The notes under the pieces were generated by a model. It searched no databases, was not told the DNA's origin, and saw nothing but the letters and a program-made list of their open reading frames with translations. DNA of 63,366 nt, the filler included, from Basidioascus undulatus (lineage: Eukaryota): NCBI GenBank assembly GCA_000826855.1. It is 5 parts of 5 records of this genome, joined end to end, with 100 filler letters (N's around TTAATTAATTAA, not from the genome) between each part and the next. Parts side by side here need not be neighbours in the genome. Positions count along the whole stretch, not along the records: positions 38,110 to 50,690 come from JTLS01000891.1; 4 more parts are not named here. One strand, given 5' to 3'. The translations under genes and the position numbers were made by a program. Of the stretch, positions 38,010-60,931 are shown piece after piece. The first letter of the stretch is position 1, and every line of letters starts with the position of its first letter.

Positions 38010-38109
38010 NNNNNNNNNNNNNNNNNNNNNNNNNNNNNNNNNNNNNNNNNNNNTTAATTAATTAANNNNNNNNNNNNNNNNNNNNNNNNNNNNNNNNNNN
38101 NNNNNNNNN
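38010..38109. other. Artificial contig linker N44-TTAATTAATTAA-N44
   Basis: Same 100-bp spacer. Confidence 0.98.
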
Positions 38110-38649
38110 CGGCCAGCTCCTGGAAGAGCAGCTTGGCGGCGTAGGGGATCTGTCGAGTCGGACGTGAGCGCGAGTACCGCCACAAAAATGTGTCAAGGTT
38201 TCTCCCTACGTGGATCTGCAAAACTTCTGTTTTGTTGCGGCAAGCGCGGCATTCGAAGGTCCTTTATCAGCAGGGCGATAGCAGTCATGCCGCAGCTGCT
38301 CCCCAGTCATTGTCAGTCCTTGTCAGTGATCCACTTCACGTTACATAAGCGGTGGTACGCGGCGGCACATACAGGTCGTAGACGTGCAGGCGAAGCGTCA
38401 AAGAGACACTCCTTAAGGAAGCCCGCGACACCGTGGGCCATCATGCAGTCGCGTGAGTGTCGAGGCGAGTATCAGCAGCGGCCCATCCGACACTGAATGT
38501 CATCGCACGCACCACCCTCTTTCCAAAAAGCACGCTACCATAGGGAGATCCAGCTTAAACCACTTCGCAATTTCGTTGTCAACTACGCGCGCAAACTATA
38601 AAGGTGTTGGAATGAGGTACGTGCTGGTTCCCTGGTGGCGGTGGTACAT
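38110..38649 (-). pseudogene. Inverted partial duplicate of the RPB2 3' end, introns retained
   Basis: The reverse complement aligns to about 43370-43978. 38110-38261 matches 43828-43978 with only 2 differences; further in there are a 10-bp deletion and many substitutions. Confidence 0.9.
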
Positions 38650-39273
38650 CGCACTGGTCTCACTGTTTTCTGTCGGGCACCGGGGAAACACAGGCCACCA
38701 ACAAATATAATCAACCCTCAGATAAATATATTGGCCTATGCTGAGTTTCGCGAGGACGTTGCATGACTATTACGCACGAAGTGAATGCGACCTTCTTGGG
38801 CACAAGAAAATAGCGGATAGCTTGAAGGGGGTTGTAAGGGCCAGTCTCCTTCTGATGATGATCTATCTTCCAAAACACTTAATTCAGGGTATTCCCACTC
38901 GAGAGCCCAACCTCCTGGAGTGCAAAAAAAAGCCGATGATCAGAGCGTCTTCCTTTCGAGACTTTTCAAATTGCATGGCTAAGCTGCGAGCCACTACAGG
39001 TTAGGTTACGCGGCTTGGGAGATCTCACTCATCTCGCCGCGCGACGTCTTCTGAAGTTGCCGCCGTCTTGCCCATCCTCGCCGTTCTCTCTTTGATCTTC
39101 ACCGCCAGCACCGCGTCTTTGGCCAGACCGAACCTCCGCCACCCAGTGCTACACCCGCCAGCTCTATTCCTCAGCTCGGACGCGCCGAGCTCAGAACCAT
39201 CTTCTGCGCAGAACCAGCCAGCCAGCCTCTTCATCTCCGCCACACACGTCTCCCGACACCTGTTCAGCCCAGC

Positions 39274-42200
39274 ATGAGCATGGAGGACCAGATTAAGACT
39301 GGTACAGAAGCATACTGCTTGCTTTTGGGGCGCACATGGCGCTCACACCGCGCTCTCAGATGACTTCGACGAGGACTTTGGGTTCGGCCTTGGCGACGGC
39401 ATGGACGAGGATGGGGACGCGGGGATCACACAGGAGGACTGCTGGACTGTGCGTTTCAAAGAGTTCCTGGGGAGAAATGCATCAATTTGCTTATTGGGGA
39501 GCTTGGGCAGGTCATCTCCGCCTTCTTCGAGGAGAAGGGCCTCGTGCGCCAGCAGCTCGACTCGTTCGACGAGTTCGTGCAGAACACGATGCAGGAGATC
39601 GTCGAGGAGAACGCGAACCTCACGCTCGACCAGGTCAACCAGCACACGGGGCACCATGGCGACACGACCGTGCGTTCAGACAGCTCGCATAGGAAGATTG
39701 CTCGGTGTTGGGAGGGGGTGCTGATGGAGGGGATCTCGTGCCACCAGAAACGCTACGAGATCACGTTCGGGCAAATCTACCTCTCTCGCCCGACCATGAC
39801 GGAGGCGGATGGGTCGGCGTCGCCCATGTTCCCGCAGGAGGCTCGTTTGCGTAACCTTACGTGCGTGGTGCAATGCGCTGCCAGGTCTAGGCAGGCGTTG
39901 ACCTGACCCTCTGTGGCCACTAGGTACTCGGCGCCGATCTACATCGACATGACGAAGCGCGTGCTGGTACCGGCGGAGGACCCCGAGACGGGCGAGAGCG
40001 GCTGGGCGGAGGACTTGGAGGCGAGGGACGAGCCGGCTGCGGATCCCAACGAGGACCCGAAGCCAGTGAAGGTCTGGATCGGCAAGGTGCGTGCTTTACT
40101 CTTGGATGGAGATGAGGAGAATCATGCTGAAGGTTGAATTCGGGCGGGGCAGGTCCCGATCATGCTGCGGTCTGGCTTCTGCATGCTCAAGCCGCTCGAC
40201 GACATGAGCTTGTATACCGTGAACGAGTGCCCGTATGACCAGGTTCGTTGCTGATACAGGCACAGGCTTCAGGCCGGGACACGCAGCTGATGAGGGTGGC
40301 GCTTCAGGGCGGGTACTTCATCATCAACGGTTCGGAGAAGGTCTTGATCGCCCAGGAGCGTCTCGCGGCGAACCACGTCTACATCTTCGCGAAGGCCGAG
40401 CCTTCGCCCGTCTCCTTTCTCGCCGAGATCCGGTCCGCCGTCGAGAAGGGCGGCAAGACCATCTCGACGATGCAGATCAAAATGTACCGTCGCTCGCAGA
40501 ACAAGGCTGTGCGTCTTCTTTGTGCCGTCTGGCATCCTATGGGCGAAGGATTGTGAGGAGCGGGCAAGGGCTGACTGGCGTTTTGGGTACAGCCGCCCGA
40601 CACCATGCGCGCGACGCTCCCGTACATCAAGAACGAGATCCCCATCGTCGTCGTCTTCCGCGCGCTCGGCATCGTCCCAGACCGCGACGTCCTCGAGCAC
40701 ATCTGCTTCGACCCGAACGACACGCAGATGCTCGACCTGCTCAAGCCGTGTATCGAGGAGGCCTTCGTCATCCAGGACCGCCAAGTAAGCGGGGAAAAAC
40801 ATTACATTTGCCGCAAATGCTAACAGCGGTCTTTTTTCCTCAGGTCGCTCTCGACTTCATCGGCCGTCGCGGTACCCAGACCGGTCTCAGCAAGGACAAG
40901 CGTATCCGCTACGCGCGCGACATTCTGCAGAAGGAGATGCTGCCGCACGTCTCGACGTCCGAGGGCTACGAGACCAAGAAGGCGTGGTTCTTCGGCTACA
41001 TGATCCACCGCCTCGCCCTCGCCCGCATGGAGCGCCGCGAACTCGACGACCGCGACCACTTCGGCAAGAAGCGCCTCGACCTCGGCGGGCCGCTGCTCGC
41101 GAGCTTGTTCCGCATGCTCTTCCGCAAGCTCACGAAGGACGTCTTCCGGTACCTCCAGAAGGTATGCTTGGCTTTCGCCGGTGCTGCCCTGCTTTTGTTT
41201 GACTGTCGACTGATCTCCTGTCCGCGTATCACAGTGTGTCGAGACGCACAAGGAGTTCAACCTCAACTCGGCGGTCAAGCCGAACACGATCACGAACGGC
41301 CTGAAGTACTCGCTCGCGACGGGCAACTGGGGCGACCAGAAGAAGTTCATGCAAGCCAAGGCGGGCGTGTCGCAGGTCCTGAACCGCTACACGTTCGCAT
41401 CGACGCTCTCGCACTTGCGTCGCTGCAACACGCCGATCGGGCGCGACGGCAAGATCGCGAAGCCGCGCCAGCTGCATAACACCCACTGGGGCATGGTCTG
41501 CCCCGCCGAGACGCCCGAGGGGCAGGCGTGCGGTCTCGTCAAGAACCTCGCGCTCATGGCCAACATCTCGGTCGGCACCGCGTCGGCGCCAATCGTCGAG
41601 TTCTTGCAGGAGTGGGGAATGGAGGACCTCGAGGAGTTTTCGGCGCGTACGAGCGGGTACACGAAGATCTTCGTCAACGGCGTCTGGCTCGGCGTCCACC
41701 GCGACGCGAGCGGCCTCGTCAAGACGCTGCGCAAGCTCCGCCGCGGCGGCGACATCGAGGCGGAGGTCTCGATCGTGCGCGACATCCGTGAAAAGGAGCT
41801 CCGGCTCTACACGGACGCGGGTCGCGTCTGCCGTCCCGTCTTCGTCGTCAATGAGGACACGCAGGACCTCGAGCTTAAGAAGAAGCACGTCAACGCGCTG
41901 CAGAACCACCTCGCGGGCGAGGGCACGTTCGGCTGGGGCAAACTGCTCAAGCACGGCATCGTCGAGCTCCTCGACGCCGAGGAGGAGGAGACCTCGATGA
42001 TCTGCATGACGCCCGAGGACCTCGAGCAGTCGCGCACCGGGTACAACCCCCGCGAGACCGAGCCGTTTGACCCCGCCGCGCGCATCAACTCCGCGATGAA
42101 CCCCAACCTCAACACCTGGACGCACTGCGAGATCCACCCCTCAATGATCCTCGGGATCTGCGCCTCTATCATCCCCTTCCCCGACCACAACCAGGTACGC

Positions 42201-44120
42201 TCGCGCTGGACTGCTTGCTCATCGCTGCGCGCTTTTCTCTGACGCTCTGCTTCCCACAGTCGCCGCGTAACACCTACCAGTCCGCCATGGGCAAGCAGGC
42301 GATGGGCATCTACCTCACGAACTTCCAGATTCGGTACCGTTTTGCTCTGCGGTCTCTCCCGACCGATTTTCGACTGACATGCTCTCTTTTCGCAGTATGG
42401 ACACGATGGCCAATATCCTCTACTACCCGCAAAAGCCGCTCGCGACGACGCGTTCAATGGAGTATCTCAAGTTCCGCGAGCTGGTTCGCCCCATTTCAAA
42501 AAACGCTCCCACCCTTAACTGTTGCTGACAGCTCGATACAGCCTGCCGGCCAGAACGCGATCGTCGCGATCCTGTGTTACTCGGGCTACAACCAGGAGGA
42601 CTCGGTCATCATGAACCAGAGCTCGATCGACCGCGGTCTGTTCCGCTCGATCTACTACCGGAGTGCGTCCCTTCCCGTCCCACTCACATTCTTGCGGGGT
42701 CTAGGTGACTGACGCCGGATTGGGCCAGGCTATATGGACACTGAGAAGAAGGTGGGGGCGATTATGATGGAGGAGTTCGAGAAGCCGACGCGCGAGACGA
42801 CGCTTCGGATGAAACACGGCACGTACGACAAGATCGAGGACGATGGCCTCATCGCGCCCGGCACGCGCGTCTCCGGTGAAGACATCATCATCGGCAAGAC
42901 CGCGCCGATCCCGACCGACAGCGAGGAGCTCGGCCAGCGCACGAAGCTGCACACGAAGCGCGACGTCTCGACGCCGCTCAAGAGCACCGAGAACGGCATC
43001 GTCGACCAGGTGCTGATCACGACGAACCAGGAGGGCCTCAAGTTCGTCAAGGTCCGCGTGCGCTCGACGCGCGTGCCGCAGACGGGCGATAAGTTCGCGT
43101 CGCGTCACGGGCAGAAGGGGACAATCGGCATCACCTACCGCACCGAAGACATGCCCTTCACCGCCGACGGCGTCACGCCCGACCTCATCATCAACCCCCA
43201 CGCCATCCCCTCGCGCATGACCATCGGCCACTTGGTCGAGTGTCTGCTCTCGAAAGTCGCGACGCTCAGCGGCTCCGAGGGCGACGCGACGCCGTTCACC
43301 GACCTCACCGTCGAGAGCGTCTCGGCCATCCTCCGCGAGAAGGGCTACCAGAGCCGCGGCCTTGAAGTCATGTACAACGGCCACACCGGCCGCAAGCTCC
43401 AGGCGCAGGTGTACCTCGGCCCGACGTACTACCAGCGCCTGAAGCACATGGTCGACGACAAGATCCACGCGCGCGCGCGCGGTCCAGTCCAGATCCTGAC
43501 GCGCCAGCCGGTCGAAGGTCGTTCGCGTGACGGTGGTTTGCGTTTCGGCGAGATGGAGGTGCGTGTCGTGGACTGTTCGCGTCTGGGCCGCGGCTGACGT
43601 TCGCTTCCCTCGGGCTTGCAGCGCGACTGCATGATCGCCCACGGTGTCGCCGGCTTCCTCAAGGAGCGTCTTTTCGACGCTTCGGACGCTTACCGCCTGC
43701 ACGTCTGCGACCTGTACGTAACGCTGCATGCACACCGCTTACGTAACGCTGGAGGAGCAGGTAACTGACGGGGACTGGGCGGGGGGAGCAGCTGCGGCAT
43801 GACTGCTATCGCCAACCTGAAAAAGCAGACCTTCGAATGCCGCGCTTGCCGCAACAAAACAGAAGTTTCGCAGATCCACGTAGGGAGAAACCTGACACAT
43901 TTTTGTGGCGGTACTCGCGCTCACGTCCGACTCGACAGATCCCCTACGCCGCCAAGCTGCTCTTCCAGGAGCTGGCCGCGATGAAGTGCGTTGTTCTCCA
44001 ATAATCAGCTCTATTTCTGCATTCGAGCTGACTCTGTCCCCCACCCAAAGCATCGCCGTCCGCCTCTACTCCGCTGTCACGACCACGGGCGGGCGCGTTG
44101 ATTCCCCGCTTTCACCTTGA
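39274..44120 (+). CDS. RPB2: RNA polymerase II second-largest subunit, ~17 introns
   Basis: [119 protein letters not shown]. Confidence 0.98.
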
Positions 44121-44550
44121 CCGTCCGCCAGATGCTCAGCACTTGACCCCCCTTGTCTTTGAGTCGTTCGTGCTGGGCATTTACGGCGACCATCGTCTCA
44201 AGATGGAGATGAAGCAGAGGATTCAACGCGCTGTCAGGCTGGCTGGCCAAGAAGCCACGGGCAAAGCGGATCCTCCGCTGGGTTGGCGAGGAGGGCAACC
44301 AGGAACGGGTCTGGCCGGAGTGAGCGTAGCCGGCGTCGTGAGGTATGACGGCTTAACATTGAGGAGTAATGTGTGGCTCAATATATTCCTTCCTTTTAGG
44401 TCTACAGACAGGTGTACGCAACATCTTGTCACAGCATCTGAACGTGACGGGACAGCCTGACAGGCCGCCGCGTCTGAATGAGCGCTGCTCAGCTTTCTTC
44501 AACATATCTCATCTATCCCCAACCCCTACGCCACTGTGGATGCTGGTCCT

Positions 44551-46546
44551 CTACGAAACATTCATCTCTCCTTGGTCCGGCTCAGCTGACGCAGCTACAG
44601 GCTCAATGTAGAAGTCTAAAAACACCCCTCCATAGAATCGATAAGGGTTTGACGTTCTGCCGGCTAGATGCAGCCGATCTCGTAGATGACAGCCTTTTCC
44701 TGATCTCCAATGCAGCGTCCGAAGGTTCGGCGAGGTCCAGGACACCAATGTAACATCCTCAAGCTTTGGAAACCCAGCAAGCAAGGTAAACAGTTTGGCG
44801 CACGGAAGAAGGGGAAGAGAGAATTCTGTCAGAATTCTCCTACGACGCGTGCAGGGGGACGGGATGGGCTAGATAGAAGTGGGACGTGAGAGGTAAACAG
44901 AGACGTGACTGACCTCCGCCTCGTCTTCAATGCAATAGCATAGAACACGAATCTCCAAGGTCCGCAGGTAGAGCAGGACCTTTAAAGGGGTTCCAAGAAT
45001 TCAAGGAGCATGTGGTCAAGAAGGTAAACCCAGAGGTAGAGAGTGTCGAAACGAGCGAGGGAGCGACTGGAGGGTGGCATGGAACTCGGTAGCGTGGCGC
45101 AGGCTCTTTTCGAGTCCGTATGCAGACTCTATGCCCGGCGGAAACACGAACTCGATCCCCTTTAAAGCGTCGTAATACACTTCCTCGAAATCGGTGCCGA
45201 AGATAAGGCAACGAAGAGCCTGTTGCTTCGCTACGAAAGAGGCTAAGCCAGCAAGAAGGAGTCTAGCGTCGTCCCCATGACAGAGGTCTACAGGCCGAAA
45301 GCGGATGTCAAGCTTACGGAGGCTCGAGAAAGCCGGACCAGAAACGAGGGCTGCAGGGATATCCGAATCACAATCGTCGATCAGCTGGAGCTCGACAAGC
45401 GCGTTGCAAATGAACAGGGGGTTGGTGAGTGCGAGCGAGAATTCCTCTGCAGCGGTAGGAGAGACACGCTATAAGAGTAAACGGCGAAGCTGCGACAGAT
45501 CGACGTTTGGGAGCAGTTCCAATCGCAGGATGCTCTCGACGGTGTTTTTGGCATCGCAGCGTCCATTACGATTCCCGTCAACCGAGGTCAAATGTAGAGA
45601 GGGAAAGGGGCTCCCGCAGAGAATGGGAGGGGAGTAGAATGTCAAGAGTTTAAACGTGCACTGGTTGAGCGTCAGGGAGCTCAGAATCTTAGCGGAGCGG
45701 AGGTCGTGGGGCTCGGAAAAATGGCAGTTCCTGCGTAACGTGAGCACAAACGGAATCAGCGCTCACCGTGGAAGGCAGAATGAGGCCGAGGCATTAATGA
45801 ACATAAACGTGATGCTTTGAATGTACGCCAGGCGGGCTTGTAAGGTAACCTAGAGGGTCGGAGGCACGCTGCAGTTCTTGGAGAACCCGTTGCGCCATGT
45901 AAAGTCGCAAATCCCGGGCCCCAAATCGAGCAGCTTGCGCAAGAGTGATAGTGAGTTGGTGCAATCAGTAATTATATTCTCCCATGCCGGCTGCGATCTG
46001 AAGCCTGAGTCAGCGTCGGACTTTGCAAGCCAGCTGACACGGTCGGTACTGACCGTCGATTGGCCCAGTGGTTCAGAGCTGTGGGCTGCTAGCAATTGGG
46101 ATAGAATCCTGGGCTCGAACCAGGTGCCTCCGGTGTCACATACCGGCGCTCTGACACGTGAGCTAAAACTGCCTGTCGTTCGCAGTGGCACCCCAGAGAG
46201 ACTCAAAGACATTTCGACGCACGATCCAGAAGCGCACACTGGGAGGTGCGCACCTACCCGCGCAAATTTAAAGCTCTACCCAGTTGACCTCGACTTTCAG
46301 GAGGCCCCGCAGCAGCACCGGCTTCTAGGTAAAGCGCTATAGACGCGTGAAGTCTTGGAAATCTGTGCGAGGCTCTCGACACGGAGAACAGCGTGTCGAA
46401 CACACGAGGGAGGGCGACACCGTGCATGTTCCGTAAAACGGTGAGCGGAGCGACTGCAATCCAAGCTTCGAGGTCTGCAGGATTGTCCAGTGGTCGGCGA
46501 CGCAGTGCCAAACGTCGAGCGGGAGCGAGTCCGGAATGGGCTGCAT
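44551..46546 (-). pseudogene. F-box / LRR-like pseudogene with several frameshifts and stops
   Basis: MQPIPDSLPLDVWHCVADH continues after a 1-nt frameshift near 46490 as LDNPADLEAWIAV. Downstream LRR-like segments (LSQLRRLLL*, FSSLRKLDIRF, YLRTLEIRV, FPKLEDVTL) are broken by stops at 45850 and 45469 and by frameshifts near 45050. Confidence 0.6.
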
Positions 46547-49500
46547 CTCGAAAGTGATCGAGGGGTGAGGTATCGAGGTGGTGTGAATTCGGGTCAGAAC
46601 GGTCCAGCACAAGGCAAGATAGGCGAGAGGGCGTGAACGTGTGTGTGCGGTGATGGGGCGAGTGAGAAAGGGAGTTGTAGGGTCGGCGACCAACTCAGCT
46701 GCCAGGGAGCCGCGGCGCGTCGATTCAATCTGGCGTCCAGCCTACCGATGCAGTCTGAGCCCGTGTTTATTAATCGCGTTGAGCCAATCGCGTCGAGCGA
46801 CGCGCTCCAAGTCGTAGATTTTTCTCACTATGGCTTTGTTTTCACCCAATGGATGGGTGTTGCTCGTGTCTCCTGTAGGACTTTCAATCATAATCGAAAG
46901 CGGCAGATTCTTGCCCTGCCATAGCCGAACAGCAGAACGGGCCGGTGTGCTTTGTCTGAATATACCAGGGAATCCCAAGCCTAGACACACATAGGGACAA
47001 TAATTTTTTTCCGGTCATTGGGCAAAGCTTGCAGACAGGAAAGTAACAGCGTGAGATATCGTCTTTGCAAGGACGATGCAAGTGTTTGGGGACATTCGTT
47101 CTGTCATAATGCACCTTTCCGCTTACTTGCTTCTGAGCGTTACTGTCCCCATATCTAATGTCAGCGTAGTCGTGAATCTGTTACAACGCCCAATCAAAGC
47201 AGCACCAGGCATCCCTGGTAAGGAAGTCTGCAGCCACTGCACGGTTGCACCTGCAGCCTGACTGTTGTTTGATTTCTTGCTGTAGTCTCGCTCATCTTTA
47301 ACCCTGATCATATCGGTACACATTATGTATAGTGTTTAAAGCATTGTGCACCTTGGGGAAATGCATCATATAGAACCTCTGCCTCATGCGTGTGCACCTT
47401 GTCGTCGAAGTGGAGTTCGTGTTATTGTTGACTCACAGCGATCACTTGACGCACGGACATACAGAGACTTTAGGCTTGATGCTTCAATGTGTGACCTTGG
47501 TACACCAGATCAGATGTGTTGCGCATTCCCCAGTGTGCCACGGTACCGATGCAATGGCGCACTCACTAGGGACTGCGGCATGCCACGTACACTCTCTGTC
47601 CGACAATGGCTGCATGTTGTCGTTTGTCGCAGGGGCAATTGTGCATCAATGGTTTACACTTCTGCTTCCCAAACACAGCCGCCGAACGCACAAAGTGGCT
47701 GGCATGTATAGGGGAGCCCTCTCGGAGTTTAAGAAGCTTTCCCGTGTACCTTCTCAAATCTCAGCACAGAACGTGCTTGCCCGCAACGGCACCAAGGCGA
47801 ACGTTCACCGTACGTACTCTTCGCAGGCTTGCGACAACTCGCCTTTGCAGCCTCATGTGAACTGACGCCCCATCTGTCCTGCAGCTACCTGCACTCACGA
47901 AGCCATCCCATAATGGTATGTTCCCATCCTCGGCAATCATGCATCTTCAGGCCACTGATGCCGCCGAAACTCCCGCGCATGCAGTCCAACCCCCCGCCGT
48001 CCGATGTGCACTAAACCAAAAACAACTCGTAACTGAGGCCAGGACCCCATCCGCGGAGGTGGTAAGCAACCAACTCACCCGTGAGGCGCACATCCCTTCG
48101 CGCACCGATTTCAGACCAAAACTAACGCAACGCTTCGCCCTCAGGCATGCTGCGTCTCTCTTTCCTCCAGTCCGCGTTTATGAACGAGGTGTTCAAGGCG
48201 CATAACCTCACCGAGGTGGGTTGTTCTTCTCGTCGATGTTGAATGAAAGGTGGGCTCAAGCTGACTTTTGGTGTTTGATTATCGTGCCACTTCTTCCAGG
48301 CGCAGCACCGCGCGTTCTGGAAGATTTGTGCCACCTGGGAGGCGGCCGGGATATTGCAACACCTGACAGTATCGAGGACAACGATTGACGGGGCTGGAAT
48401 TTATACAAGTCCCAACTACGAGTGTACGCGCGCGTGTTGTTGTCCTCGCTGCCTCGTATGGGCCAGTGCGTGCTCACACATGTTCGGCCACACGCAGCGA
48501 AGGGGTCAACAATCACCGATTGGCACCAGGCTACAGATAACTTCTAAAAAAGATGCTCTCTTGGGACTCCGGGCAGTGAGCACTGGCACGGCACTACCCG
48601 TTGTACCGACCTGCTCCCCATGCCACTTCCGACTTGACGCCTGCGCCCTGTCTTTGTGCAACCGTGCTCTGATCCGCCGACGTACACACATATCCTGCAT
48701 TTTCAACCTGGTCAACCCTTTGATGTACATCTTCAGGCTGAGAACAGTTTCATACACGGCACGCTCAGTAGCATTGCTTGTCCCACTCACGGCAGCTCTG
48801 CGCAGATCCGCGAGAGGGTCCGCCTAAATATGTCTCCTCGTCCACAGTTGGCTTACGTATGCATGACCATTTTCATGATGTTCTACCTGAGATTTATTAG
48901 CTGATTTCCACGCAAAACAAAGAGCTGGGCCGCCGCTGCAGGCCAGGTGAGGAAGGGAAGGGTGCCCAAGTATCTCACCACGGCTTACCGGGTGTTTGAC
49001 AAGAATAAGCAAACAGGTTCCTTGAATCTTCTGAACTCTTTGAGGAGTATGAAATAGCCAAACTCACTTCTACGCCAGGTCTTTCCAGGTCCTGCCACTG
49101 GCGCTCGACTCGCCGTCGACCTGTGCTGCAGGCTGCTCGACTGCTCAGGTATCTGAGAGGGATTCGAGTTGTTTCACACCTAGGCCTGGATCAGTTTCAC
49201 CTTTTATGTTCAGCTCCATCCAGGTTGAAGTGGACCGAGCAGTGCATGCAATGGAGATTTAGGCCACATCGGCAGGAGCGAGAACCTCGCTCGCTGCCAG
49301 GACTTTCTGACTATTGCTCCGCGGCAATAAATGCAGCGGTTCTTAGAGCGATCCCTCTGTGGACCTCTAGTTACTGCTGAACTGAATACTGTCAGGGCTC
49401 TGGAGGAATGAAGGCCTGGTTGATATCAGAAGGAACGGGTGGTGGGCGAATAGTAGGTACGTCTTTTGAGGAGAGCGTGTGCACCCTCTGTATGTGTAAT

Positions 49501-49887
49501 CGTTCTTTTCTCTCACTGACATCGACTGGATCAACGATGAGCGCATAAAAGGAGCTTTCTTACCATGTGCTGTAGGCTTTTGAGTTCCAAAACCCTGACA
49601 AGAACGCCAGCTTGCTTCAGTAGCGAGTTGGAGGTCAGCGCGTCCGGTCGTTCGGCGCCCAAGAAAGGGTACCGTTGGGCGGAGCACACCCACTAAGGCT
49701 CGAGGACGAGAAGAAGGCATAGGTATGACCCAGCGCTGGAGCTTCAGGACGAGGTCGGTTGCCCGGGTGCAGACAAAAGCGGAGCTTGAGCTGCAGTCGG
49801 GTTTCCGGGCATTCCTCCTCTCTTCCGTCCACACAGCCCTCGCCGACTCCCGAAATAAATACCCATACACCTCCCGCCTCCTACCAC

Positions 49888-50690
49888 TCATTCACCTCCA
49901 TCCCGTCCAACCCCTCCCCTCCCCTCCTCAACAAGCACCCAACTACTTCCGCACCCGCCCCACATTCCCCTAACTCTCCACCCCCTCCACGCCTCTTCCA
50001 CAGGCGGCCATGCTCGTTCAGGCACCCAGACGTCCTCCGTGTGGCCCAAGCCAAGCGTGCCGTGCTCGTTCCACCCGAAGACGTAGATCTCGTCCGGCCC
50101 CTCCTCCCTCTCATCCTCGGCGGCGGTGGAGAGTGCCAAAAGGGAAGGCGAGGAAGGGGAGGAGAGAAGGACAAGCAGGTGCTCGCTCCCCACCGCAATC
50201 TCCCGTGCAGGCCTCGGGAGCGCCACGGGCCCGGGGGTATCTTCCCCCATTGCGCGCCGCCCAAGCTGCCCGTGCGTATTGCTCCCGCACGCCCACACCC
50301 GCCCCTCAAAATCAAGGACATAGCTTCCATTCCAGCTCGCCTGGACCTGACGTGCCCTCCGCTCAGGCAAGCGCAGCTGTCCGCGTGCGTCGGACCCCCA
50401 CGCGACGACCTCCTCCCCAGGCGAGGAGGAGGGGGGGAGGAAGAGCGAGTGTTCTCTCCCGGCTGCGATCTTAGCGGGAGCAAAGGGGATTGGGAGGACG
50501 GCAGGGGCAGAGAGGAAGGGGGCGTGGGAGAGCGAGGGCGAGAGCTGGGACTTGCGGGAGGCGCCGAGGCCGAGCGTGAGGGGTGTTGGGTCCGGGGAGT
50601 GGGGGGAGAAAGCGAGGAGGGAGAGAATCGCGTGGCGAGGGGAGGCGGCGAGGGGGGTTATTGTGTAGTGCGTTGTTTCGGGGGGTAGGG
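49888..50690 (-). CDS. RCC1-repeat protein, Ats1/Kti13-like, 5'-partial
   Basis: AAGREHSLFL, VAWGSDAHGQL, VWACGSNTHGQLG, IAVGSEHLL, FGWNEHGTLGLG and terminal WGGCGSSWV. Confidence 0.82.
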
Positions 50691-58139: not shown

Positions 58140-60343
58140 TTTACTAGAGCTCTCGGACTATAACTTCGGAGTGCGTTTGAGAAAGGAGAAGGAGGTCGAG
58201 GAGAAGCAAGGCAAGGAGATCTCCCTTCTCCAGAGGCGGAAATTGCGGAGTTTAGATAACAGACAGGTTACATTCTGCAAGCTCTCCTTCGGTTACTTAT
58301 GGGGCCTATGGACGAGGGCCATGAAACTCCCCTACATTACTTCGTTACTAAAGAACACGTATGCAATTGAAAGCCGTAGGCAGAACACTGCAGCGAGTGC
58401 TGCCAATGGGACGCCCAACCATCTGGCACGCTCGCTGTCTCTGAACATCTTTGCGGGAGTCTGGGTCAACGGTCCCCGGGGTTGGCATTTAAGTATCTGG
58501 GAGTCCAACATTTTAGAAACCCCTGAGATGAAATTGAGCTCTCTGCAAGGCCTTGCGAATGTGGCGCTCATCGGGCGGCGGTTCGCAATGCAGCAAGCTG
58601 CAGCCGCAGTGTCTGTAAGCTGGCGCCATTACCCACTCTTGTTTCTTGGACTGTCAAAGTATTTTAACACCACAGATAGTGGTATACTCGGACCAAGAAC
58701 TGAAAGATCCAGGACGACCGCGCTGGTGAGACTAGGATCCGATTCTCTTCAATTGTCAAGCTCATCCATCGCGTTCGGTACCGCTCGCACCCAGCCGGAC
58801 GGACAGCTTCGCTGCAGGAACGTCATTCCCATACACTTTAACAATCATAAATACCGTCGCAGGCTTGTTTCGCCGGCGGCAGGTGAGAGCCGGCGTGCTT
58901 GCATGTTTCCGTATGTGCGCGAATCCGCGTTGATTTTGGTCGATTCGTTGTTTGCAGTGTCCCCGGTGCGTAAGAGCTTGATAGCATGACTTGCTCGCAC
59001 GATGCAGACTTCCCGTGACGACTGCGACCGAACAACAGGGACGTGGCTGTAGCACAAGAACACACTGGAAGATTTGGGGGACCATATACGAATTCTTATT
59101 GGGTAAATAGTCTGGGAATGCAAAGATCGATATAGTCTCGTTTCCGAGCTCCGCGGCGTTCGCCAGCCTCGCGGAGTACAGTGGTGTGTGTGGCACTGCC
59201 GCGACGACGACATACCTTCCATCGCCCGGAGTTAATCTTCGAACCAAGCGGAAGCCTTCTAAAGATGTTCCGACCGAATTCGTTGGGGGCGAGCGGGTTG
59301 ATGGCAAGCGTTTCTTGCTCCTTCGGCGCTGTGGATGATTGCGCTCCAGACGAGCGCCTCAGCCTGCAGAGCCCTGCTTGCTTCTTTTCCGTCCAGGTGA
59401 ATTTAAATCCCCATCGGACCTAAATTGATTCCCAACGGCTTCCAGTCCCCCACAGAAGCGGAAGGGCGTCTTGTCGACGACCTCATTGCAATGGGCCGTC
59501 TGCTTTCAGACTGCGCTCTCTTCGCCATTTTCAGACCAGCAATGCCGCTTTCTCCAATCAGAAGAATTAGTGAAAGAAAATTGTCTCTAAAAACAATTCG
59601 GCTGCTGGACCCCATCTCCACGCCGAACTCTCATCTCTCGCAAAACACCTAGACCCAACAGCCGTGACCTTAATGTCCATCCATGCAGAGCCGACGATCT
59701 GCGAAAGTTGAATGTCTGCAATGGATTCCCAGGACACACCGAACCACTGGTTATAAAGTAATGTGTACCCAAACAGCGGGCAGGATATCGTTCTAGACGT
59801 CTGCGACCGCAGTTGGGTCTTCCGACGGACCTGGCCCTGCTGCTGCTTGCGCGCACGCTTCGAGTTCCCTGCGGCCTCTGCGACACCGCCGCAGAACAAA
59901 ACACAAAGTATATGTCAGAGACCCTGGGGTATTGTTGGATTATGGGACTGGGCTGAGTAGTTCAGCTAAATGTGGGACAGACGAACGACTGGGTTGAGTG
60001 GTTCAGCTGAATGTGGGACGACCGTTCGTCTGTCGAAGTTCACCCGCTCACCACACACCTCTCCACATACCTCCACAACCTGTACACGCTTCGCCTTCGA
60101 ACGTCTCGGGCAATCATGCATGGGCGGGAAGCACCCATCGCACACGTATCACGTCCAGTTGAAACGGCTGATCAGTACTGACAGGGAGACGGCACGGTCA
60201 AGCACACCAAGCATCGCACGCAGATCGCATCAAGCTCAAGTGCGCGATGTTGTTGTTTCGGGTGGACAGACATGCAACAGACGCAGATAGCATCAAGCTC
60301 AAGTGGGCTATATGATTACAACAGTCGATCAAGCAAGGCTACA

Positions 60344-60931
<588 letters not shown>

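What the first reader, a model, noticed from the sequence alone, without database searches (positions are those of the whole stretch)
38110..43978. RPB2 sits inside an inverted repeat made of its own 3' end, with a steep divergence gradient
Seen: about 625 bp upstream of the RPB2 ATG, on the opposite strand, is an intron-containing copy of the RPB2 3' region. The outermost ~150 bp (38110-38261 vs 43828-43978), including a whole 59-nt intron, differ by one substitution and one 1-nt indel. The next ~250 bp are clearly diverged, with a 10-bp deletion and a rewritten intron. The innermost part is barely recognisable (ATGTACCACCGCCAC vs ATGTACAACGGCCAC; SPYGSVLFGKRV vs [12 protein letters not shown]). 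The contig ends inside the near-identical part. Inference: this is an old inverted duplication whose outer arms are still homogenised by gene conversion or crossover. Crossover between the arms would flip the ~5.5-kb promoter+RPB2 segment and attach a different last exon/3'UTR and neighbourhood. That resembles flip-flop loci bounded by gene-fragment inverted repeats, as in methylotrophic-yeast MAT switching, but here around an essential polymerase gene.
Basis: partly seen in the sequence, partly recalled or inferred. Interest (0 to 1): 0.75.

Follow-up and report, generated by a model that had tools for sequence, protein, structure and literature searches.

The report
Inverted RPB2 tail copy, mis-joined assembly
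A fungal RNA-polymerase gene has an old, broken, upside-down copy of its own last 600 bases next to its promoter, patchily refreshed from the working gene; the assembly most likely swapped the two ends, and nothing points to a genetic switch.

Summary
The left arm continues on contig G000:C1408, giving arms of about 620 bp (43528-44150). Identity peaks in the middle (105-bp perfect core, 43893-43997; 4 differences in 231 bp) and falls on both sides, in patches. Two public DNA runs keep both arms, with depth fitting two copies, so the tip is not a chimera. The last exon joined to RPB2 in the window is the decayed one (frameshift; Val at a site where 0 of 88 homologues have it). The C1408 exon matches homologues and is the only end in a spliced 4,047-nt RPB2 contig. 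So the working gene ends in C1408, and the window is a mis-join through the core (about 70%) or a real rare isomer (about 20%). Best reading: an old dead partial copy, re-copied from the gene by ectopic conversion at least twice; a possible but poor inversion substrate, with no payload or sign of a programmed switch. Known kind of event; modest interest.

The parts
38010..38109 (.). Artificial contig spacer (N44-linker-N44); the contig of interest is 38110-50690 = G000:C2869
38110..38543 (-). Inner half of the dead RPB2 3' copy (equivalent of 43528-43978), with introns, an 11-nt and a 2-nt frameshifting deletion
38110..38261 (-). Near-identical part of the copy at the contig tip; carries two alleles of its own
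   Evidence: kept as its own contig in run X2
38544..39061 (.). Spacer / RPB2 promoter region; single copy, no detectable RPB2 homology, no Rfam match
39062..43987 (+). RPB2 transcript up to the penultimate exon (ATG at 39274 read from sequence); the only RPB2 found in the assembly
   Evidence: spliced contig in run X3
43528..44150 (+). Full extent of the repeated segment in window coordinates (about 620 bp)
43622..43713 (+). Older island of similarity (one exon, 8 differences in 92 nt) between two introns at about 30 per 100
43828..44058 (+). Youngest homogenised tract: 4 differences in 231 nt, two whole introns included
43893..43997 (+). Perfect 105-bp core; the assembly's join across it is unverified
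44052..44120 (+). Decayed last exon ([26 protein letters not shown]); belongs to the dead copy. The expressed exon is on G000:C1408 (IAARLYSDVTTTGGAR-stop)
44161..44345 (+). Fragment (79%) of an internal exon-like frame on G000:C2801, fused right behind the decayed RPB2 end
44759..46720 (-). Patchwork of dispersed diverged duplicates (67-90% to C1060, C969, C84, C2988); no Pfam family

Best explanation
An old local duplication put about 620 bp of the RPB2 3' end (last exons with their introns, stop codon and the first 50 nt of 3'UTR) in inverted orientation about 520 bp upstream of the transcription start. The copy is dead (shown: frameshifts, replaced conserved residues). Since then ectopic gene conversion between the two arms, 5.5 kb apart, has re-copied parts of the gene onto it at least twice (inferred from nested patches of identity that include introns); selection on RPB2 lets mainly gene-to-copy transfers survive (inferred). 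The true arrangement is: [window 44000-50690 reversed] - dead copy - promoter - RPB2 - C1408. The assembly crossed the 105-bp identical core from the gene into the copy's outer arm and left the other two ends as loose tips (inferred). A crossover in the core could flip the segment, but only as a rare accident; it has no function.
For: Missing arm found on C1408, overlapping the tip by 51 nt exactly. Four-way junction in read-based contigs of runs X1 and X2: one unique 38275-43812 segment, one collapsed ~250-nt piece, two exits. Depth of the collapsed piece: 1.416x predicted for two copies, 1.419x in X1, 1.60x in X2. X1 keeps the gene-arm alleles, X2 the copy-arm alleles, each with 0 other letters. 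Longest identical run 105 nt: 0 of 20,000 random placements of the 82 differences reach it; 5 of 20,000 when restricted to 43622-44128. C1408 tail has the same length after QEL (20 residues) as Wallemia ichthyophaga P0005 and shares RLYSDV and GG.R; the window tail has Val where 88 of 88 homologue tails have A, P, T or S, and a 1-nt deletion (88 of 120 proteins carried the motif). The spliced X3 contig shows the C1408 alleles at full depth (57.7 of 57.7) and a loose end equal to C1408 from position 208; exon bookkeeping gives 4,048 nt against 4,047 observed. The window-type exit is the deeper one in both DNA runs (46.9 vs 36; 25.4 vs 16.2), which would draw a coverage-guided assembler into it. 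The window-type arm runs straight into a foreign fragment.
Against: No read or pair spanning the core was seen; the public contigs are not phased across it. X1 and X2 may be the source of the assembly, and X3 is the same sample as X1, so there are at most two samples. Contigs drop rare variants, so a minor isomer would be invisible. The assembler is unknown, so the mis-join mechanism is a guess. X2 depth (1.60x) is above the two-copy prediction. The better-kept exon 43622-43713 could reflect past selection on the copy instead of an older conversion (3 replacement vs 4 silent changes). CpG-biased decay of the copy is only borderline (12 of 78 vs 9 of 130, p 0.06).
Confidence: 0.7

Rival explanations
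1. Passive inversion polymorphism: same relic, but the window shows a real second orientation, made by a crossover in the core, present in the sequenced culture or segregating between cultures; RPB2 then carries the altered 26-residue tail and a foreign 3'UTR.
For: The assembly does join gene to window-type arm. Conversion between inverted repeats is occasionally resolved as crossover and inverts the segment (PMC9731477, passages). The altered frame stays open to a stop 6 residues later, so the isomer could be viable. Neighbouring duplicates show in-place micro-inversions.
Against: Only the C1408 end appears in the spliced contig; no X3 contig covers the window-type exon. Perfect identity is 105 bp, below the roughly 200 nt given for lower eukaryotes, and flanking mismatches lower recombination (PMC8918686, passages). 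The isomer loses the native 3'UTR.
Confidence: 0.2
2. Programmed flip-flop switch of the methylotrophic-yeast MAT type, toggling RPB2 3' ends or neighbourhoods.
For: The Hansenula repeat also contains the C-terminal half of a housekeeping gene (SLA2) in opposite orientation (PMC4238957, passages).
Against: There the repeats are 2,049 bp and identical and the inverted region holds two alternative MAT loci. Here arms are patchy, the core is 105 bp, the alternative exon has only replacement changes and a frameshift, the promoter travels with the gene, and one mRNA end is seen. 0 of 80 other RPB2 loci show such a repeat (none is a close relative).
Confidence: 0.03
3. The near-identical tip is an assembler chimera; the real copy is uniformly old.
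For: Fragmented assembly (2,992 contigs); the tip lies in the repeat.
Against: The tip has its own two alleles, recovered in X2; depth of the collapsed piece fits two near-identical copies; C1408 supplies a second outer arm.
Confidence: 0.03
4. Origin only (not exclusive of the above): the copy is the scar of a 5.5-kb staggered-break inversion of RPB2, or the eroded end of a whole head-to-head duplicate, rather than a templated insertion.
For: Staggered breaks leave inverted duplicates of single-copy DNA at both ends of an inversion (PMC3355041, passages). The exon-over-intron conservation at 43622-43713 fits a once-working duplicate.
Against: In the scar model the copy should keep the ancestral downstream DNA; instead it fuses within about 10 nt to a fragment of another locus while the gene keeps a transcribed 3'UTR. 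No trace of the 5' gene lies in 38560-39060 (291 of 300 shuffles score as high). No outgroup synteny: the gene downstream of RPB2 in Wallemia mellicola has its homologue on another contig, C2339.
Confidence: 0.35

Closest known systems
Saccharomyces FF (flip/flop) region, chromosome XIV (PMC9731477; passages read)
   Same: Inverted repeats homogenised by gene conversion, with inversion of the middle proposed as a by-product, not a switch.
   Different: There arms are 4.2 kb, 97.6% identical, hold working genes, and both orientations are documented; no flip was seen in about 53,800 mitoses. Here arms are 0.6 kb, patchy, one arm is dead, and a second orientation is unproven.
Hansenula/Ogataea polymorpha MAT inversion (PMC4238957; passages read)
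   Same: One arm contains the C-terminal part of a housekeeping gene in opposite orientation.
   Different: 2,049-bp identical repeats, inducible inversion, alternative MAT loci as payload; none of these is met here.
Inverted duplications at staggered-break inversion ends, Drosophila mojavensis 2h and 2q (PMC3355041; passages read)
   Same: Single-copy gene DNA duplicated in inverted orientation around a segment; one copy intact, one decayed.
   Different: Here the inversion itself is not shown (no outgroup), the segment is 5.5 kb, and the arms show later nested homogenisation.
[quoted passage not shown]
   Same: Repair can paste copies of local or distant sequence, often several pieces, some inverted; the copy here sits in a patchwork of foreign fragments.
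   Different: The local fold-back duplications described are mostly 5-34 bp and adjacent to the break; here 620 bp copied from 5 kb away.

Membership tests
Conversion-homogenised inverted repeat (FF-type) | Two real copies in inverted orientation around a unique segment | tested here: met
Conversion-homogenised inverted repeat (FF-type) | Identity higher than age allows, including non-coding DNA | tested here: met
   3 of 123 vs 42 of 138 intron differences; run test
Conversion-homogenised inverted repeat (FF-type) | Arms cluster within strain or species in a tree (concerted evolution) | not testable with these tools
   No relatives held; 0 matches for a core pattern in metagenome contigs
Conversion-homogenised inverted repeat (FF-type) | Both orientations observed | tested here: inconclusive
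   Assembly shows one phase, spliced contig the other; DNA contigs unphased
Programmed flip-flop (methylotrophic yeast MAT) | Long, fully identical repeats | tested here: not met
   105 bp perfect, 82 differences in 601 nt vs 2,049 bp identical
Programmed flip-flop (methylotrophic yeast MAT) | Alternative genes exchanged between an expressed and a silent site | tested here: not met
   Segment holds one gene with its promoter; alternative exon decayed
Programmed flip-flop (methylotrophic yeast MAT) | Inversion inducible by a signal | not testable with these tools
   needs cultures
Staggered-break inversion scar | Segment inverted relative to an outgroup, duplicates at both breakpoints | tested here: inconclusive
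   No flank homology in 80 other RPB2 loci; Wallemia neighbour lies on another contig
RPB2 (RNA polymerase II second subunit) | Orthology and single intact copy | tested here: met
   82-90% identity to fungal RPB2 over a 276-residue exon; one locus at 72-93% to the Wallemia protein, other hits 28-72% on paralogue contigs

The most novel reading that the evidence does not exclude
The RPB2 cassette really flips at low rate through its own 3'-end shadow, and the window caught the second isomer: a viable polymerase II subunit with a changed, six-residue-longer tail and a foreign 3'UTR. The copy's place, just upstream of the start site, would then reflect promoter-terminator gene looping, which brings the 3' end next to the promoter and favours both the original copying and the repeated conversion (looping is recalled knowledge, untested here). 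Such inverted shadows of housekeeping genes could be a recurring, assembly-hidden class in fungi.
Probability: 0.15. Interest if true: 0.62.

Novelty: new member of a known kind. Interest (0 to 1): 0.3.

Why it matters
Practical: the deposited RPB2 model of this genome ends in the wrong exon, and RPB2 is a standard phylogenetic marker; a partial inverted copy overlapping the marker's 3' region can also mislead assemblers. Biological: it is a compact natural record of nested conversion tracts between a gene and a dead fragment, with introns as clocks. If both orientations exist, it would be a natural inversion polymorphism that changes the tail of an essential polymerase subunit and could be tested with one PCR design.

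Tried and rejected
Phasing the arms from public contigs: bubbles are popped one by one, so X1 (gene-inner with window-outer alleles) and X2 (copy-inner alleles) say nothing on orientation; the output also hid 24 pieces and 12 joints. No RNA holder was listed as such; X3 is labelled DNA by guess but shows GT..AG skips at 9 listed RPB2 introns. No X3 contig covers the copy at 38374-38901: not taken as evidence of silence; the X3 depth at 38110-38373 comes from a 38-nt match of another contig. Core pattern in metagenome contigs: 0 matches. Synteny: 0 tblastx hits of either flank or the promoter in 80 other RPB2 loci; TAF7 search rang nowhere, controls included, so uninformative; C2339 has the downstream-neighbour homologue but no RPB2 remnant. 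Continuations of C1408 and C2869 were not found; 6 of 6 other contig tips tested overlap no other contig. Flank frames: 1 of 11 had Pfam hits (RCC1); one flank frame found no homologue among 3,911 candidates of longer proteins. Rfam: 0 matches in 3 loci. ATGTAC motif and upstream homology: chance level. CpG decay: borderline. In one search I set one exon start 3 nt early (43789 for 43792); no difference falls in those bases. Six paper searches listed no title or abstract opening on an inverted partial RPB2 copy; I saw listings only, and the library lacks most subscription papers.
Full report
Setting. The window is five contigs joined by artificial spacers. The finding lies on 38110-50690, which is G000:C2869 of a 32-Mb assembly in 2,992 contigs. 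The gene is RPB2 of a basidiomycete: a 276-residue exon is 82-90% identical to fungal RPB2, with Wallemia and Agaricomycotina at the top of that range. It is the only RPB2 found in the assembly; other hits are weaker paralogues.

Observation. The innermost motif it quoted is chance level (264 of 1000 shuffles), while the SPYGSVLFGKRV part is real (0 of 1000). The copy therefore starts near 38543.

The missing half. G000:C1408:1-222 matches 43928-44144 at 90% and overlaps the contig tip by 51 identical bases. The repeat is about 620 bp. Comparing inner and outer halves separately gives 82 differences in 601 nt, with per-100 rates, from inside out, of 39 (exon end), 32 (intron), 9 (exon), 29 (intron), 13, 2, 2 (intron), 0, 3 (intron), 8 (last exon) and 26 (3'UTR). 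So identity peaks in the middle and is patchy. The longest perfect run, 105 nt at 43893-43997, was reached by 0 of 20,000 random placements, and by 5 of 20,000 when only 43622-44128 was used. The two introns in the core differ at 3 of 123 nt, the two inner introns at 42 of 138 (p 4e-10). Selection on protein cannot explain intron identity with a dead copy; conversion can. The youngest tract has 4 differences in 231 nt, so the last event is recent relative to the duplication (roughly a fifteenth of the intron divergence, uncorrected) but not necessarily ongoing.

Is it an artefact? Three public runs hold the stretch; two may be the source of the assembly. In both DNA runs the contigs form a four-way junction: a unique 38275-43812 segment, a collapsed piece of about 250 nt, and two exits, window-type and C1408-type. 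From shared 31-mers, two copies predict 1.416 times single depth; X1 gives 1.419 and X2 1.60. X1 kept the gene's alleles, X2 the copy's. The segment and both exits are at about single depth, so this is a repeat, not two alleles.

Which end belongs to the gene? The window's last exon reads [26 protein letters not shown], the C1408 exon IAARLYSDVTTTGGAR-stop. Of 120 homologues, 88 carried the anchoring motif; at the third residue of this exon 63 have A, 17 P, 5 T, 3 S and none V, and Wallemia ichthyophaga has a tail of the same length as C1408 with RLYSDV and GG.R. Run X3, labelled DNA by guess, holds a 4,047-nt contig spliced at the RPB2 introns; it shows the C1408 alleles at its full depth and leaves the window at 44129 into sequence equal to C1408 from position 208. 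Exon lengths sum to 4,048. No X3 contig lies on the window-type exon. So the expressed gene ends in C1408, and the arm printed after RPB2 in the window is the outer half of the dead copy. That arm fuses at 44161 to a 79% fragment of another locus and then to more dispersed duplicates.

Mis-join or second orientation? Not decided. For a mis-join: the RNA end, the short core, and the greater depth of the window-type exit in both DNA runs, which would attract a coverage-guided extension (inference). For a real isomer: the assembly does contain that join, the altered frame stays open, and contigs drop rare variants. I put mis-join at about 70% and a real isomer at about 20%.

How common? Among 40 other G000 contigs or contig parts (622 kb), 1 had an inverted local duplicate of 100 nt or more, at 70% identity; repeats with perfect cores break contigs, so this undercounts. 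The two paralogue loci have none. Of 80 RPB2 loci from metagenomes (44 of at least 10 kb), none has an inverted RPB2 fragment; one has a 106-bp inverted repeat away from the gene. None is a close relative. The neighbourhood itself is restless: C1408 and its paralogue on C2631 differ by two separate in-place inversions.

Mechanism. Shown: real inverted partial copy; dead; nested identity; expressed end on C1408. Inferred: conversion from gene to copy at least twice; mis-join. Open: origin (templated insertion slightly favoured over staggered-break scar or eroded whole duplicate, since the copy stops short of the transcribed 3'UTR end and joins foreign DNA); existence of the second orientation.

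Comparison. It works like the Saccharomyces FF repeats, where conversion homogenises the arms and inversion is a by-product (PMC9731477, passages), but the arms are far shorter and one is dead. It fails the tested features of the programmed MAT inversion, whose repeats are 2,049 bp and identical and whose middle holds alternative loci (PMC4238957, passages). A review gives about 200 nt of strict identity as the minimum for efficient recombination in lower eukaryotes and notes that flanking mismatches reduce it (PMC8918686, passages); the core is half that. Staggered-break duplicates are described in PMC3355041 (passages) and templated inverted insertions in PMC11724301 (abstract). Six searches listed nothing on an inverted RPB2 fragment; listings only. 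An earlier unchecked note of this scan describes a like case at a fungal RPS13 gene; it is a lead, not support.

Verdict. Interest 0.3; about 0.6 if both orientations turn out to exist.

Noticed in passing
L006:467-2180 (G000:C1408) vs G000:C2631:5819-7541: Two diverged (76-83%) copies of a 1.7-kb gene-like segment keep the same block order, but the second and third blocks are each reversed in place: two separate micro-inversions, just downstream of the true RPB2 end. No Pfam family.
   Followed up: partly
L166 (G000:C220, 9.9 kb) and L167 (G000:C308): Long intronless frames including a distant RNA polymerase second-subunit homologue (26-28% to RPB2; Pfam RNA_pol_Rpb2_6, E 2e-16) and a TFIIS-type zinc ribbon protein; looks like a virus- or linear-plasmid-like element in the fungal assembly. 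Observed only.
   Followed up: partly
L030 (G000:C2988:3000-11127): Dense mosaic of dozens of short (26-100 nt), 80-100% identical direct and inverted internal repeats; a scrambled region or an assembly tangle. One 199-nt piece is 90% identical to window 45987-46180.
   Followed up: no
L035:3867-5962 (G000:C2380): Old near-palindromic inverted duplicate, 68-76% identical, arms about 300 bp apart.
   Followed up: no
window 60132-60867: Tandem duplicate of about 228 bp at 92% (60351-60578 vs 60641-60867) with shorter related repeats upstream.
   Followed up: no
window 49891-50690 (-): RCC1-repeat protein gene cut by the contig end.
   Followed up: no
window 44759-46720: Member of a small dispersed family of diverged gene-like segments (C1060, C969, C84), no Pfam hit and no homologue found for one frame.
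   Followed up: partly
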